From: a virus
Strand: one strand, 5' to 3'
UHGV virus genome: UHGV-0370973
Length of the DNA: 38,758 bases
In this document: piece by piece, positions 1 to 15,993 of the stretch
How the letters are laid out: the number at the start of each line of letters is the position of its first letter
Numbering within the stretch: the first letter of the stretch is position 1
The notes under the pieces: model-generated
Seen by the model: the letters and a program-made list of their open reading frames with translations, nothing else
Databases searched by the model: none
What the model was told of the DNA's origin: nothing
Made by a program: the position numbers and the translations under genes

Positions 1-4
1 CGCA

Positions 5-493
5 ATGACCAGTTTTGCCAGCCCATACAGCATCGGGGACACAGCAACACCGACCGCCACCCACTTAATGGCAAAAGCCAGTGCTCTGCTGATGTCATCA
101 GACCGCGATAACGCCATCACCTACAAAGTGCAGCGCGATAAAAAAGCCAGAGAGCTGGAGCTGGCAAACGCCACCATTACTGATATGCAGGTGCGCCAGC
201 GCGATGTTGCTGCGCTCGATGCAAAATACTCGAGGGAATTAGCCGATGCGAGAGCTGAAAATGAAACTCTGCGTGCTGATGTTGCTGCTGGTCGTAAGCG
301 CCTGCGGATCAACGCCACCTGCTCCGGTACCGTGCGTGAAGCCACCGGCACCTCCGGCATGGATAATGCAACCGGCCCCCGACTGGCAGACACCGCTGAA
401 CGGGATTATTTCATCCTCAGAGAACGGTTGATGACAATGCAGAAGCAGCTGGAAGGGGCACAGGAATATATCCGCACTCAGTGCCTGAATTAA
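5..493 (+). CDS. Rz: Rz-like i-spanin (inner-membrane spanin component); upstream end possibly cut by window start
   Basis: Translation from DRDNAITYK to the C-terminal QC aligns along its length with lambda Rz ([13 protein letters not shown]...AALDAKY...DDVAAGRRRL...[17 protein letters not shown]...MQKQLEG). The reading frame is open to position 2, and the visible N-terminus has no hydrophobic TM segment. Confidence 0.85.
246..431 (+). CDS. Rz1: Rz1-like o-spanin lipoprotein, embedded in the +1 frame of Rz
   Basis: [15 protein letters not shown] lipobox-type signal followed by a proline-rich mature region [27 protein letters not shown], matching lambda Rz1 ([27 protein letters not shown]). 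Fully nested inside Rz as in lambda. Confidence 0.8.
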
Positions 494-13608: not shown

Positions 13609-15072
13609 ATGAGTAAAAAGTTTACAATGACACTCCTGTCATCTTCTCTGGCCGGGCTTCTGGTGATGAGTGGTGGGGTGAGTGCGCAGGAAGAAAAATA
13701 CACAGTGCCGTATGCCACAGGTAACAATAAATGGGGGAATACCTATGAAGTTGTAAAGACAGGCGATAATGGTAACTTCAAATACGAAGTAAAAGAGAAG
13801 AACAACGGCAAGAGGACACTTTTCACATTTGATTCAAATGGGGATGTAATAATCAATGGCAGTGGCATTACGTACACAATTCATGACGGTGCGCTGAACG
13901 ATTTTGCTCAAACAGCTGAGAAAAAAAAGAATGGACCGTCTCAGTCGCACAGAATGACTGATAGCGTTGTTCGTGATGTATATAACAAAGTATACAGTCT
14001 GCAGAGAACAAAAATTACAGGTTTCAGCGTCGAAGATGGGGAGAATGGGAAGGTTTCTCTGGGTAGCGATGCGAAAGCCTCTGGTGAGTTCTCAGTAGCT
14101 GTTGGTACAGGGGCCAGAGCGGATAAAAAATTTGCAACAGCAGTGGGCTCATGGGCTGCTGCGGACGGTAAACAAAGTACAGCTCTGGGAGTGGGAGCAT
14201 ATGCCTATGCAGATGCTTCAACAGCCGCCGGAACAGCTGCTTATGTTGATGGTTCTGCTATTTATGGTACCGCTATAGGTAATTACGCAAAAGTGGATGA
14301 AAATGCAACAGAAGGTACTGCGTTAGGGGCAAAGGCAACAGTAACAAATAAAAACAGTGTTGCATTAGGAGCTAATTCACGCACAACCCGTGACAATGAG
14401 GTTTATATCGGTTATGAAGCAGAGCCGGGTAAGGCTTATAAAACCCGGGTGCTTGGTGGTCTGAGTGACGGTACTCGTCCCTCAGATGCTGCAACCGTTC
14501 GTCAGGTTGACCGTGTAAAAGACAGTGTTGAGCAACTGGCTCAGGATACGAATACCCGCCTTGTAGTCGAAGCGAAAAAGTCTCGTGAATATACAGACTC
14601 CAGAACGACAGTTGGTGTGAACCCTGACGGAAAACTTACCCGTGCAGAAGGTGCGACTAAAACTATCGCCGTCAATGATGGTCTCGTTGCTCTGTCTGGC
14701 AGAACAGACCGTATTGATTATGCAGTTGGTAGCGTTGACCGCCGGGTTACTAAAAATACACAGGCTATTCAGTCCAATACTCGCCAGTTGCAGGAGCATA
14801 ATGCACGCCTGAACAGTCAGCAGCGTCAAATTCGTGAGAATCACGAAGAGATGAAGCGTGCAGCAGCACAGAGTGCAGCGCTGGCGGGGCTTTTCCAGCC
14901 GTACAGTGTGGGGAAATTCAACGCCACTGCTGCCCTGGGGGGGTACAGTGATAAACAGGCTGTTGCCGTGGGTGTTGGTTACCGTTTCAACGAGCAGACC
15001 GCAGCGAAAGCGGGTATTGCAGCGAGTGATGGCGATGTGTCCTACAACATGGGCGTTAACTTCGAGTTTTAA
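13609..15072 (+). CDS. Eib-like trimeric autotransporter adhesin (YadA-type C-terminal anchor)
   Basis: Signal peptide [26 protein letters not shown]; YadA-head-like repeats ([26 protein letters not shown]); coiled-coil stalk; C-terminus [28 protein letters not shown]...YNMGVNFEF is a typical TAA membrane anchor ending in an aromatic residue. Confidence 0.85.
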
Positions 15073-15097
15073 TTGCTGAAAGTGACATGAAGTATGG

Positions 15098-15129
15098 CGG
15101 CAGGCGCAGGACTCTGGTCTGCCGTTTTT
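15098..15129 (+). terminator. Intrinsic terminator after eib-like gene 1
   Basis: Stem cggcag / ctgccg followed by TTTTT; the counterpart after copy 2 has stem cggcaggc / gcctgccg. Confidence 0.5.
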
Positions 15130-15160
15130 CATGGGGCATAAAAAACAGGAAGGTGCTGCG

Positions 15161-15631
15161 ATGAAGGTGATTCTGGCTACCAGGAACCGCTATCTGGAGT
15201 ATGGTCTGCAGGCGTTACTGAAGGGGCACAGTGTGATACTGGCGAGGGAGTTTTTCCTGCCGGAGAACCGCCGTTATATCCCGGACTTTGACGAATCCTG
15301 GCTGATAATCAGTGATGGCCTGCTGGGCAGGCTGATGCGCTGTATGTTCCAGGGGCGTCATTTTCTGCAACTGGATGCGGAGTTGCTCCGTGATGGTGAG
15401 CAGATAAGTGATGCCATACACAACGGCGTCTGGACGTATAACAGTGCTGCCCGCCCGCTGACGATGTCAGAGATGGTGGTGATGTTCGGTTATGTCTACC
15501 GCCAGTCGAGACCCTGCCGCCTTGCCAGTGAGATGGGTATTAACACAAAGACGGTGAATACCTTTCTGTATACGGGAATGGCGAAAAACGGGCTGTATGG
15601 TGTGAGCGTCAGACGGCTTGTTGGTGCCTGA
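15161..15631 (+). CDS. Atypical LuxR/FixJ-type transcriptional regulator with receiver-like N-terminus
   Basis: C-terminal LTMSEMVVMFGYVYRQSRPCRLASEMGINTKTVNTFLYTGMAKNGL fits the LuxR-type HTH pattern; N-terminal [20 protein letters not shown] resembles a receiver domain start but lacks the acidic pocket. RBS aggaagg lies 8 nt upstream of ATG 15161. Confidence 0.55.
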   Translation: MKVILATRNRYLEYGLQALLKGHSVILAREFFLPENRRYIPDFDESWLIISDGLLGRLMRCMFQGRHFLQLDAELLRDGEQISDAIHNGVWTYNSAARPLTMSEMVVMFGYVYRQSRPCRLASEMGINTKTVNTFLYTGMAKNGLYGVSVRRLVGA

Positions 15632-15681
15632 TGGCGGTCCTGCCGGATGCGCGGCATCTTCTGATGATTCAGAAGGTGCAG

Positions 15682-15813
15682 ATGATGAACAAAGACAGAG
15701 ACCGGAGATACGGGAGAAAACGTTACACCACAGGCGCAATGTGCTTCATGCTGTTTGTGTGGCTTGGTGGTGTGCTGGCTCTTGTTGCTACAGCTGCGGT
15801 GGTAATGCAGTAA
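15682..15813 (+). CDS. Small hydrophobic membrane peptide (43 aa), conserved in both cassettes
   Basis: MMNKDRDRRYGRKRYTTGAMCFMLFVWLGGVLALVATAAVVMQ has a basic N-terminus and one TM helix; RBS gaagg upstream; a paralogue with the same TM core lies at 34641..34766. Confidence 0.45.
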   Translation: MMNKDRDRRYGRKRYTTGAMCFMLFVWLGGVLALVATAAVVMQ

Positions 15814-15818
15814 AAAAA

Positions 15819-15837
15819 GGGGAGCAACATGCTCCCC
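15819..15837. terminator. GC hairpin flanked by an A-run upstream and no T-run downstream
   Basis: ggggagc-aacat-gctcccc directly after the small peptide stop; reads as a canonical terminator only on the minus strand. Confidence 0.35.
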
Positions 15838-15993
15838 GACCAGAAGAAAGACGTTTGATAACAATTAGTGAGTTGTTACGTCTTGTCCAGAATATCATAG
15901 CAACACTCTGTTGCAGTGATACCGATCGCGATTTTAGCGAATTCCATCATAAATCCCCTGATTTTTAAGCCTGAAGCAGTCAAAGGAATTTCT

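What the first reader, a model, noticed from the sequence alone, without database searches (positions are those of the whole stretch)
15682..15813. Conserved small single-TM peptide genes not reported by the ORF track (second copy 34641..34766)
Two paralogous 41-43-aa ORFs share the core (R)KRYT(T/A)GAMCFMLFVWLGGV and sit in the same position after each LuxR-like gene, with plausible RBSs. Conservation of the amino-acid sequence across two diverged cassettes argues that they are real small proteins (candidate membrane regulator or toxin-like peptide).
Basis: seen in the sequence. Interest (0 to 1): 0.45.

Follow-up and report, generated by a model that had tools for sequence, protein, structure and literature searches.

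The report
Small membrane protein in Eib cassettes
Both short reading frames are real genes for a roughly 42-residue membrane-spanning protein found only in E. coli prophage adhesin cassettes, where it always follows an uncharacterised LuxR-type regulator; the longer form was deposited in 2000 as "ORF-60", the shorter form is routinely left unannotated, and nobody knows its function.

Summary
ORFs 15682..15813 (43 aa) and 34641..34766 (41 aa) share an invariant core, YT(T/A)GAMCFMLFVWLGGV.

Between the two copies synonymous sites are near saturation (dS 1.9) while dN is 0.29. That gives omega 0.15 (Fisher p 2e-4), similar to the neighbouring regulator gene (0.19). The other reading frames give omega of about 1 or more, apart from the antisense frame whose third positions coincide (0.28), which carries a stop in one copy.

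Four N-terminal types in 98 copies from other loci all keep a start codon, the core and the stop.

The product is a basic 12-14-residue N-terminus followed by one helix that runs to the C-terminus. This points to a tail-anchored inner-membrane peptide with its N-terminus inside.

It is always the last gene of a mobile three-gene cassette: a YadA-like Eib adhesin, an intrinsic terminator, "ORF-156", then the small ORF. ORF-156 has a NarL/FixJ (LuxR-type) fold but lacks the acidic pocket.

The family is phrog_9340, the same as ORF-60A/C/D of prophages P-EibA/C/D (GenBank, 2000). It appears confined to E. coli, in 70 of 5426 complete genomes. RefSeq annotates copy-1 type as a hypothetical protein. 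Copy-2 type was unannotated in all 25 genomes listed, including the EibG model strain.

The function is untested. I favour a regulatory, partner-binding membrane peptide over a toxin. Novelty is modest.

The parts
15682..15813 (+). Small ORF copy 1, 43 aa (42 aa if ATG 15685 is used). Single-helix membrane peptide of the phrog_9340 / ORF-60 family.
   Evidence: Sequence and translation. phrog_9340 hit, E 7.6e-30, covering residues 18-60 of the 60-aa ORF, which is exactly this 43-aa part. Purifying selection. The 17-codon upstream extension (15631-15681) shows only non-synonymous variation and is closed by stops in other types, so it is probably not part of the protein. AF2 predicts one helix, residues 4-42.
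34641..34766 (+). Small ORF copy 2, 41 aa, same family. Unannotated in the RefSeq genomes examined.
   Evidence: phrog_9340 hit, E 7.4e-13. An in-frame stop at 34623-34625 excludes a long N-terminal extension. No annotated feature under the match in all 25 listed of 44 RefSeq genomes. An identical protein is encoded but unannotated in JNEC-KY208 and in P-EibE, AF151676.
15161..15631 (+). ORF-156 copy 1 (156 aa). Atypical NarL/FixJ-type (LuxR-type HTH) regulator-like protein, phrog_6585. First cistron of the pair.
   Evidence: PGAP and GenBank start at MKVILATR. No Pfam or NCBIfam hit. phrog_6585, E 2.7e-99. AF2 pLDDT 85.6. Foldseek top hits are StyR, EvgA, LiaR, FixJ, DesR, VraR and RcsB, probability 0.9-1.0. 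Profile against PDB sequences: LuxR-family HTH, E 0.04.
34114..34587 (+). ORF-156 copy 2 (157 aa), 68% identical to copy 1.
   Evidence: dS 1.36, dN 0.25, omega 0.19 against copy 1. Its first 78 nt also occur inverted at 33698-33775.
13609..15072 (+). Eib-family trimeric autotransporter adhesin gene (YadA-like, 487 aa). First gene of cassette 1.
   Evidence: Pfam YadA_anchor and YadA_head. PGAP product 'YadA-like family protein'. 98% DNA identity of the downstream part to P-EibD.
32984..34027 (+). Eib-like gene of cassette 2 (347-aa ORF), disrupted in this window by a 78-nt inverted insert.
   Evidence: Pfam YadA_anchor. Inverted repeat. Comparison with JNEC-KY173.
15096..15130 (+). Intrinsic terminator between eib and ORF-156, cassette 1.
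   Evidence: Hairpin of -19.9 kcal/mol, z -3.4, followed by TTTTT. Annotated as stem_loop in AF151675.
34051..34086 (+). Intrinsic terminator between eib and ORF-156, cassette 2.
   Evidence: 11-bp stem followed by TTTTTT, -27.2 kcal/mol, z -4.9.
15819..15837 (-). GC-rich hairpin directly after the stop codon of copy 1. The T-run is on the minus strand, so it is a terminator for leftward transcription. On the plus strand it has no T-tail.
   Evidence: It is kept next to the ORF's 3' tail in the Stx-phage-like remnants.

Best explanation
Shown: both ORFs are real protein-coding genes of one family, phrog_9340, the same as 'ORF-60' of the P-Eib prophages. The conserved product is 41-43 residues. 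It has a 12-14-residue basic N-terminus (4-7 Lys/Arg), then a single hydrophobic helix that runs to within 0-1 residue of the C-terminus.

Shown: the gene is always the last member of a mobile three-gene cassette. The order is an eib adhesin gene, an intrinsic terminator, ORF-156 (a NarL/FixJ-fold LuxR-type regulator without the acidic phospho-acceptor pocket), an approximately 50-nt spacer, then the small ORF. No promoter-like site lies between ORF-156 and the small ORF.

Inferred: topology is N-terminus in, C-terminus at the outer face of the inner membrane. The peptide is tail-anchored and is the second cistron of an ORF-156/small-ORF transcript.

Inferred mechanism, about one chance in three. 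The juxtamembrane and inner-leaflet half of the helix (RYT.GAMCFMLFVWLGGV) is invariant, while the N-terminus and the outer half vary freely. The peptide therefore probably works by helix-helix binding to a conserved inner-membrane partner or to itself. In that way it would modulate signalling to or through ORF-156 and hence expression of cassette or neighbouring genes (eib, eaa). This resembles small membrane proteins such as SafA or MgrB, which modulate two-component signalling. The confidence figure applies to the gene, the membrane-protein reading and the module. The regulatory role itself is far less certain.
For: Coding:
- Omega is 0.148 between the window copies (p 1.8e-4). It is about 1.1-2.1 in four of the five other frames and 0.28 in the complementary-phase antisense frame, which contains a stop in one copy.
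- Omega is 0.05-0.32 among eight family types with dS often above 1.
- Seven of 10 third positions in the core vary, against 1 first position and 0 second positions.
- Types B and D were found through the regulator or through independent loci. They have unalignable N-termini yet keep ATG, core and stop.
- The selection signature starts at the 15682/15685 ATGs, not at the 60-aa start.

Membrane helix: 28-29 uncharged residues, best 19-residue Kyte-Doolittle window 2.4-2.5, basic N-terminus. AF2 gives a single helix with pLDDT above 90 in residues 21-40.

Module: in every copy with enough flanking DNA the small ORF follows an ORF-156 homologue (68-100% identity), and that homologue follows a YadA-like gene. 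The downstream gene varies: an L0124-like tail gene, the eaa protease, or other. The same layout is annotated in AF151091 and AF151675 and is found in JNEC-KY208.

Regulator fold.

Terminators after eib.

No promoter-like site between ORF-156 and the small ORF.
Against: - There is no direct evidence of translation or membrane localisation.
- SD sequences are only moderate, and weak in type B (-2.8 to -3.8 kcal/mol).
- No promoter was found for the ORF-156/small-ORF pair at all.
- ORF-156 homologues at four other kinds of locus lack the small ORF. The regulator therefore does not need it, which weakens a strict regulator-partner model.
- Fourteen consecutive invariant residues cover all faces of the helix. 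This fits an oligomeric pore or toxin as well as it fits partner binding.
- No partner is identified.
- The cytoplasmic part is very short and variable, which argues against direct binding of soluble ORF-156.
Confidence: 0.6

Rival explanations
1. Superinfection-exclusion or other phage-directed membrane protein. On this reading the peptide is a prophage 'moron' product in the inner membrane that blocks DNA entry or otherwise protects the lysogen, independently of ORF-156.
For: The cassette sits inside the tail-gene region of a 933W-like prophage, after the tail fibre and DUF4376 genes. Small inner-membrane moron products in tail modules are known to do this, for example HK97 gp15 (own knowledge). 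The family is confined to prophages.
Against: The small ORF never occurs apart from eib and ORF-156. It travels with them to a different prophage position after the LPD5 gene. There is no PADLOC hit. There is no homology to any known exclusion protein.
Confidence: 0.12
2. Membrane-active toxin or lysis-type peptide, such as a type I toxin or a holin/antiholin-like peptide, that depolarises or permeabilises the inner membrane.
For: The size and the single very hydrophobic helix fit. All faces of the helix are invariant, which is compatible with self-assembly. The same prophage carries a Hok/Gef gene elsewhere.
Against: - No candidate antisense RNA: downstream sequence differs between cassette types, and the minus-strand terminator ends at the stop codon without overlapping the coding part.
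- No Rfam match.
- No Hok or other toxin Pfam hit.
- It is co-oriented 50 nt behind a regulator gene with no promoter of its own.
- Up to 7 places per genome.
- The prophage has its own holin, lysozyme and lysis protein.
Confidence: 0.1
3. Helper for the adhesin. On this reading the peptide is an inner-membrane factor that assists export or surface display of the Eib trimeric autotransporter, or of the Eaa autotransporter.
For: It is always linked to an eib gene. It is absent from ORF-156 homologues that have no eib next to them. Accessory proteins next to trimeric autotransporter genes are known, such as SadB and TpgA (own knowledge).
Against: A strong terminator and the regulator gene separate it from eib. 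An eib-like gene plus ORF-156 homologue exists without it (L133-135). According to PMC13534694, plasmid-borne eibG with 168 bp of upstream DNA restores the chain phenotype in an eibG deletion mutant. The chromosomal small ORF was still present there, so this is not decisive.
Confidence: 0.1
4. Not a separate small protein. On this reading the conservation reflects an RNA or DNA element, an antisense gene, the 60-aa ORF-60 as originally annotated, or a frameshift fusion to ORF-156.
For: - The 60-aa frame is open in type A, and its ATG overlaps the ORF-156 stop (TGATG).
- GenBank annotates 60 aa and PGAP 49 aa.
- One antisense frame has omega 0.28.
- The outer third of the ORF is a recombination junction.
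Against: - Synonymous sites in the core are free to vary, so the constraint is on the protein, not the nucleotides.
- The antisense frame has a stop in one copy, and antisense ORF lengths differ between copies.
- The 17-codon extension shows 0 synonymous differences against 130 pooled non-synonymous ones within type A.
- The extension is closed by in-frame stops in types B and C. The stop at 34623-34625 lies downstream of the ORF-156 stop, which also excludes a conserved frameshift fusion.
- No Rfam hit.
Confidence: 0.04

Closest known systems
ORF-60A / ORF-60C / ORF-60D of prophages P-EibA, P-EibC, P-EibD of E. coli ECOR-9 (GenBank AF151091, AF151674, AF151675)
   Same: It is the same gene. 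The 821-nt region around copy 1 is 98.1% identical to AF151675, with the same order eib, stem-loop, orf-156, orf-60, then an L0124-like gene or eaaA.
   Different: It was deposited as a 60-aa ORF with no function. Comparative data here place the conserved product at 41-43 aa. The copy-2 type in P-EibE was not annotated at all.
PHROG family phrog_9340 (unknown function)
   Same: Both copies match the 43-position profile end to end, with E 7.6e-30 and 7.4e-13.
   Different: The family carries no annotation. This report adds selection, topology and context analysis.
Small inner-membrane modulators of two-component signalling (SafA/B1500, MgrB)
   Same: They are single-pass small proteins, and SafA is encoded in an operon with a transcription factor (safA-ydeO). 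They act by contact with a membrane sensor (own knowledge). The invariant membrane-embedded segment here suggests a comparable contact.
   Different: There is no sequence similarity and no Pfam hit. SafA and MgrB act through periplasmic tails, and this peptide has none. No sensor partner is known. The resemblance is a working analogy, not membership.
Type I toxins (Hok/Gef, TisB, ShoB and similar)
   Same: Size and one strongly hydrophobic helix.
   Different: No antisense RNA locus, no toxin family hit, a strongly basic N-terminus, a position as second cistron behind a regulator, and many copies per genome.
Accessory proteins of trimeric autotransporters (SadB, TpgA)
   Same: They are encoded next to a trimeric autotransporter adhesin gene. 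A BamE/OmpA-type gene of this sort lies next to a large adhesin gene in L133-135.
   Different: Those proteins are larger periplasmic or lipoprotein partners co-transcribed with the adhesin. Here a terminator and a regulator gene intervene.

Membership tests
phrog_9340 / P-Eib ORF-60 family | Significant full-length match to the family profile | tested here: met
   E 7.6e-30 (copy 1) and 7.4e-13 (copy 2), profile positions 1-43 and 9-42 of 43.
phrog_9340 / P-Eib ORF-60 family | Synteny: eib (YadA-like), then ORF-156, then the small ORF | tested here: met
   Both window copies, and every one of the 98 retrieved copies that had enough upstream DNA. The GenBank records show the same order.
Protein-coding gene (general) | Excess of synonymous over non-synonymous change in this frame only; start and stop conserved | tested here: met
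   Omega 0.05-0.32 in frame, against about 0.7 or more in the +1 and +2 frames and about 1 or more in four of five other frames between the window copies. The fifth, a complementary-phase antisense frame with omega 0.28, is interrupted by a stop in one copy. ATG and stop are kept in 26 distinct sequences, with one stop-loss variant.
Protein-coding gene (general) | Direct evidence of translation (ribosome profiling, tagged protein, mass spectrometry) | not testable with these tools
   No expression data were available. Literature searches found nothing on this ORF.
Single-pass inner-membrane protein | One hydrophobic helix of about 20 or more residues with positive charge on one side | tested here: met
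   28-29 uncharged residues, Kyte-Doolittle 2.4-2.5, N-terminal K+R count 4-7, 0-1 residue after the helix. AF2 predicts a helix at residues 4-42. No dedicated TM predictor was available.
Type I toxin-antitoxin | Antisense or divergently encoded regulatory RNA paired with the toxin mRNA | tested here: not met
   There is no conserved flank between cassette types. No plus- or minus-strand promoter-like site lies next to the ORF. No Rfam match. The minus-strand terminator stops at the ORF's stop codon. A simple scan cannot exclude an unconventional RNA.
Type I toxin-antitoxin | Toxicity on overexpression | not testable with these tools
   This requires an experiment.
Hok/Gef, MgrB, SafA and other curated small-protein families | Match to the curated Pfam or NCBIfam model | tested here: not met
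   0 families at E up to 1 in Pfam and NCBIfam. An exhaustive profile search of 1.84 billion representatives returned only this family, plus one spurious repeat-protein hit.
LuxR/FixJ (NarL-type) regulators (the neighbouring gene ORF-156) | C-terminal GerE/LuxR-type HTH recognised by sequence | tested here: inconclusive
   No Pfam GerE hit. A profile of 21 homologues matches LuxR-family HTH chains at E 0.04-0.05 and GerE at 0.37.
LuxR/FixJ (NarL-type) regulators (the neighbouring gene ORF-156) | Two-domain fold: receiver-like alpha/beta domain plus four-helix DNA-binding domain | tested here: met
   AF2 pLDDT 85.6, pTM 0.78. The top 30 Foldseek hits are all NarL/FixJ-type response regulators, probability 0.6-1.0, E 1e-3 to 4e-2, TM 0.3-0.5.
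LuxR/FixJ (NarL-type) regulators (the neighbouring gene ORF-156) | Acidic pocket for phosphorylation (the Asp-Asp pair after strand 1) | tested here: not met
   The strand-1 end reads ILATRN in nearly all homologues. Only the Asp after strand 3 (IISD/IICD) is kept. The protein is therefore probably independent of phosphorylation.

The most novel reading that the evidence does not exclude
The peptide could be a membrane 'connector'. On this reading it relays a membrane or envelope state to the kinase-less LuxR-type ORF-156, and so sets expression of the Eib adhesin and the adjacent Eaa protease. The relay could run through a host sensor kinase or another inner-membrane protein contacted by the invariant GAMCFMLFVWLGG helix segment. 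This would give a molecular handle on the unexplained dependence of Eib expression on static versus shaken growth and on oxygen, reported in PMC4352079 and PMC5450701.
Probability: 0.15. Interest if true: 0.6.

Novelty: new member of a known kind. Interest (0 to 1): 0.33.

Why it matters
Eib-type adhesins contribute to serum resistance, immunoglobulin binding and chain-like adherence of LEE-negative Shiga-toxin-producing E. coli. Their regulation is described as complex, and no regulator within the eib cassette is reported in the papers read.

Two uncharacterised genes travel with every prophage-borne eib cassette retrieved: a LuxR-type regulator and this small membrane protein. The 41-aa form is missing from current RefSeq annotation, including that of the strain now used as the EibG model. 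It is therefore invisible to transcriptomic, proteomic and mutant analyses built on those annotations.

Recognising it as a selected gene gives a concrete, cheap experiment: mutate the start codon and measure Eib and Eaa. It also adds a well-supported case to the catalogue of prophage-encoded small membrane proteins. The function remains open, so the importance is potential rather than demonstrated.

Tried and rejected
1. Link of ORF-156 to the prophage Psr regulators of O157, recalled from memory. Rejected: PsrA and PsrB are AraC/XylS-type, whereas ORF-156 has a NarL/FixJ fold.

2. tblastn of the peptide against the phage collection gave no match, probably because of low-complexity masking. 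The DNA search then found 184 records.

3. The scan of one genome per species returned only a 601-bp 'Xanthomonas pisi' contig that looks like E. coli phage contamination. There is therefore no evidence for the family outside E. coli.

4. The Sandt and Hill 2000 paper that deposited ORF-60 is not held. Their view of the ORF is known only from the GenBank features.

5. Full-text searches for ORF-60, ORF-156 or the peptide string found only unrelated genes.

6. A frameshift fusion of ORF-156 to the small ORF, and the 60-aa or 49-aa start sites, were rejected on in-frame stops and lack of selection.

7. Antisense ORFs (15496..15864 and 34547..34702, minus strand) were rejected. Their lengths are not conserved, one copy has a stop, and their omega is explained by codon-phase complementarity.

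8. Rfam and PADLOC gave no hits.

9. A lipoprotein signal was considered. The sequence GAMC does not fit a lipobox, because the residue before Cys is Met.

10. Ascertainment bias was noted. My DNA pattern allowed only synonymous variation in 10 core codons, so core conservation was judged from three other sources. These were the window pair, the regulator-anchored loci and the profile search.

Full report
**What is in the window.**

The window is an E. coli prophage with a 933W-like structural module. It is nearly identical to strain JNEC-KY173 over most of its length.

- Copy 1, 15682..15813, 43 aa: MMNKDRDRRYGRKRYTTGAMCFMLFVWLGGVLALVATAAVVMQ.
- Copy 2, 34641..34766, 41 aa: MEQKKIRCGKRKYTAGAMCFMLFVWLGGVVTFCVLAALIMR.

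The strictly shared string is YT(T/A)GAMCFMLFVWLGGV. Just before it, copy 2 reads KRK where copy 1 reads RKR.

Each ORF starts about 50 nt after the stop codon of a 156/157-aa gene (15161..15631 and 34114..34587). Each of those genes follows a YadA-like adhesin gene (13609..15072 and 32984..34027) and a strong intrinsic terminator.

**Is it more than chance, and is it coding?**

- Comparison of the two window copies.
  - The last 33 codons of the two copies align without gaps. They differ at 35 nucleotides: 11, 7 and 17 at codon positions 1, 2 and 3.
  - Nei-Gojobori counting gives Sd 17.3 on 25 sites and Nd 17.7 on 74 sites. That is dS 1.94, dN 0.29, omega 0.148, Fisher p 1.8e-4.
  - The neighbouring 156-aa gene gives dS 1.36, dN 0.25, omega 0.19 between the same cassettes. 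The small ORF is therefore as constrained as a gene nobody doubts.
  - Four of the other five frames give omega 1.07-2.12. The fifth is the antisense frame whose third positions coincide with those of the ORF. It gives 0.28, as expected from phase, and carries a stop in one copy.
  - The spacer before the ORF and the sequence after it are essentially unalignable between the copies.

- Retrieving further copies. I used three routes:
  - homologues of the upstream regulator in viral contigs;
  - a degenerate DNA pattern for the core in viral and metagenome contigs;
  - protein searches.

- What the further copies show.
  - In 127 loci there are 98 copies and 26 distinct coding sequences.
  - They fall into four N-terminal types that cannot be aligned at the DNA level: MMNKDRDRRYGRKRYT, MKQANLKYVKKRYT, MEQKKIRCGKRKYT and MSSSGNQTRKKQRYI.
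  - All have an ATG at the equivalent place, the same core and a stop at the same place. One variant has lost its stop.
  - Among eight representative types omega is 0.05-0.32 in frame and roughly 0.7-20 in the +1 and +2 frames. dS is often above 1.
  - My DNA pattern permitted only synonymous variation in ten core codons, so those loci cannot be used to prove core conservation. The evidence for the core comes from sources that did not impose that filter: the window pair, the regulator-anchored loci (types A, B and C) and the exhaustive profile search.
  - A few truncated or frame-shifted variants exist as rare singletons (P0033, P0081, P0084).

- Where the protein starts.
  - In copy 1 the frame is open further upstream. 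GenBank (2000) annotated 60 aa from ATG 15631, which overlaps the stop of the upstream gene. PGAP annotates 49 aa from 15664.
  - Within type A the 17 extra codons show five variable sites, all non-synonymous (pooled Sd 0, Nd 130). The following 19 and 24 codons give pN/pS 0.52 and 0.27.
  - In types B and C an in-frame stop lies just upstream of the conserved ATG.
  - One subtype has Arg in place of the first of the two Met codons. The SD-like AAGGTG (15673-15678) is better spaced for ATG 15685.

**What the protein looks like.**

- The N-terminal 12-14 residues carry 4-7 Lys/Arg.
- The rest is a 28-29-residue uncharged stretch with 0-1 residue after it. The best 19-residue Kyte-Doolittle mean is 2.4-2.5.
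- AlphaFold2 with the family alignment gives one continuous helix (residues 4-42), with pLDDT above 90 in residues 21-40.
- By the positive-inside rule this is a tail-anchored inner-membrane peptide with its N-terminus inside. That topology is an inference.
- Conservation is uneven. Y15, G18 to V31, and A38-A39 are invariant. The first ten residues and the outer third of the helix vary among hydrophobic residues.
- The outer third co-segregates with whatever lies downstream. VLALVATAAVVMQ occurs with the L0124-like tail gene and VVALFTAAAVLLQ with eaa. A recombination junction therefore lies inside the ORF, just after the invariant core.

**Context.**

- In every copy with enough flanking DNA the order is the same: a YadA-like eib gene, an ORF-156 homologue (68-100% identical), then the small ORF. 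The next gene differs between loci.
- The cassette occurs after the tail-fibre and DUF4376 genes, or after the giant LPD5 gene at the prophage end, as in this window.
- ORF-156 homologues also occur without the small ORF in four other settings:
  - next to NleG effector genes (L024-L034);
  - next to capsule and T6SS genes;
  - near hpaBC;
  - behind an eib-like gene in a non-phage adhesin island.
- In Stx-phage-like loci (L036-L050) eib is absent and ORF-156 has an internal deletion. Only the last ten or so codons of the small ORF survive, next to the hairpin. This is a decaying scar, not a counter-example.
- ORF-156 has no Pfam or NCBIfam hit.
  - Its AF2 model (pLDDT 85.6) retrieves only NarL/FixJ-type response regulators as top structural matches.
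  - A family profile matches LuxR-type HTH chains at E 0.04.
  - The acidic pair after strand 1 is missing.
  - 'LuxR-like' is therefore right at fold level, and the protein is probably not phosphorylated.

**What is already known.**

- Both copies hit phrog_9340, a 43-position family of unknown function.
- The DNA around copy 1 is 98% identical to GenBank AF151675 (prophage P-EibD of ECOR-9). There the genes are labelled eibD, orf-156D and orf-60D. P-EibA and P-EibC have the same labels.
- P-EibE has the 41-aa type, but it was not annotated.
- In RefSeq the copy-1 type is a 'hypothetical protein'.
- The copy-2 type has no feature in any of the 25 listed of 44 genomes. This includes JNEC-KY208, the EibG model strain of PMC13534694, where an identical 41-aa ORF lies between the regulator and the S6 peptidase gene.
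- The family is narrow.
  - An exhaustive profile search of 1.84 billion representative proteins found ten hits. Nine are this family and one is spurious.
  - All named members are from E. coli.
  - 70 of 5426 complete E. coli genomes carry at least one place, up to seven per genome, all chromosomal.
- I found no paper that discusses the ORF.

**How it most likely works.**

Shown: it is a selected protein-coding gene for a one-helix hydrophobic peptide. It is tied to the eib/ORF-156 cassette, and no promoter-like site of its own was detected.

Inferred: it is co-transcribed with ORF-156.

- Main reading, a partner-binding regulatory peptide.
  - The only strongly conserved part is the juxtamembrane and inner-leaflet half of the helix. 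The cytoplasmic tail is short and variable, and there is no periplasmic tail.
  - The peptide's specificity must therefore lie within the membrane. I read this as helix-helix contact with a conserved membrane partner or with itself.
  - The cassette supplies a kinase-less NarL-type regulator but no sensor. I therefore favour a modulatory role that feeds into ORF-156-dependent control, by analogy with SafA and MgrB.
  - This is an analogy only. Membership of those families was tested and not met. I put this mechanism at about one in three.

- Rivals.
  - Superinfection exclusion is plausible from the position in the tail module. It does not explain the strict linkage to eib and ORF-156.
  - A toxin fits the invariance of all helix faces. 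It lacks an antisense partner, sits behind a regulator gene and is multi-copy.
  - An adhesin helper fits the eib linkage. Against it are the intervening terminator and the eib-like locus that lacks the peptide.
  - Non-coding explanations, the longer ORF and a frameshift fusion are effectively excluded.

**Verdict.**

This is a real small membrane-protein gene. It was already catalogued without function as ORF-60 and phrog_9340, and its short form is still missed by standard annotation. It is a new, well-supported member of a known kind, not a new kind of system. Interest is moderate to low until a phenotype is shown.

Noticed in passing
window 15876..15950 (minus strand) and 15819..15837: A 24-codon minus-strand ORF (MMEFAKIAIGITATECCYDILDKT) has a good SD (AGGGGA). 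It is followed by a strong minus-strand intrinsic terminator (8-bp GC-rich stem plus T7) that ends exactly at the stop codon of small ORF copy 1. The stretch lies between the cassette and the L0124-like tail gene and is conserved in Stx-phage-like loci.
   Followed up: partly
window 33698-33775 and 34115-34192: A perfect 78-nt inverted repeat. An inverted copy of the first 78 nt of ORF-156 copy 2 sits inside the eib2 reading frame, replacing 26 nt present in JNEC-KY173. None of 5426 complete E. coli genomes has this arrangement. It may be a strain-specific rearrangement or an assembly artefact.
   Followed up: partly
window 1-101: This stretch is the reverse complement of the corresponding stretch of the otherwise collinear JNEC-KY173 prophage.
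   Followed up: no
window 38340-38758: The 3' end of the eaa (S6 peptidase autotransporter) gene is scrambled relative to eaaA of P-EibA. Positions 38340-38639 are inverted and 38640-38758 is a displaced earlier piece. The autotransporter beta-domain is therefore read from the minus strand (ORF 38115..38639), and the plus-strand ORF ends in nonsense.
   Followed up: partly
window 33386/33378 junction; L001 38294-39473: JNEC-KY173 carries an IS4-like (ISAba1-family) insertion in eib2 that this window lacks. The window's eib1 is also 48 nt shorter than in that strain.
   Followed up: no
loci L036-L050 (Stx-phage-like viral contigs): These loci carry a scar of the cassette. It consists of an ORF-156 remnant with an internal deletion, the last ten or so codons of the small ORF and the hairpin, directly before the L0124-like gene, with no eib. 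This suggests that the 933W-like Stx phages derive from a cassette-bearing ancestor.
   Followed up: partly
loci L024-L034, L130-L138: ORF-156 homologues (50-68% identical) occur as stand-alone genes at four other kinds of locus. These are next to NleG effector genes, upstream of kps capsule genes beside T6SS genes, near hpaBC, and behind a short YadA-like gene in an island with a 1439-aa adhesin and a BamE/OmpA gene. This is an uncharacterised E. coli-specific family of LuxR-type regulators linked to virulence loci.
   Followed up: partly
small ORF, codons about 32-43 (window 15775-15810 and equivalents): The outer third of the helix exists in at least five versions that co-segregate with the downstream flank rather than with the N-terminal type. 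The right-hand recombination boundary of the cassette therefore lies inside the ORF.
   Followed up: partly
locus L051: A 601-bp contig labelled Xanthomonas pisi DSM 18956 carries the E. coli Stx-phage-type remnant. This is probably contamination of that assembly.
   Followed up: no
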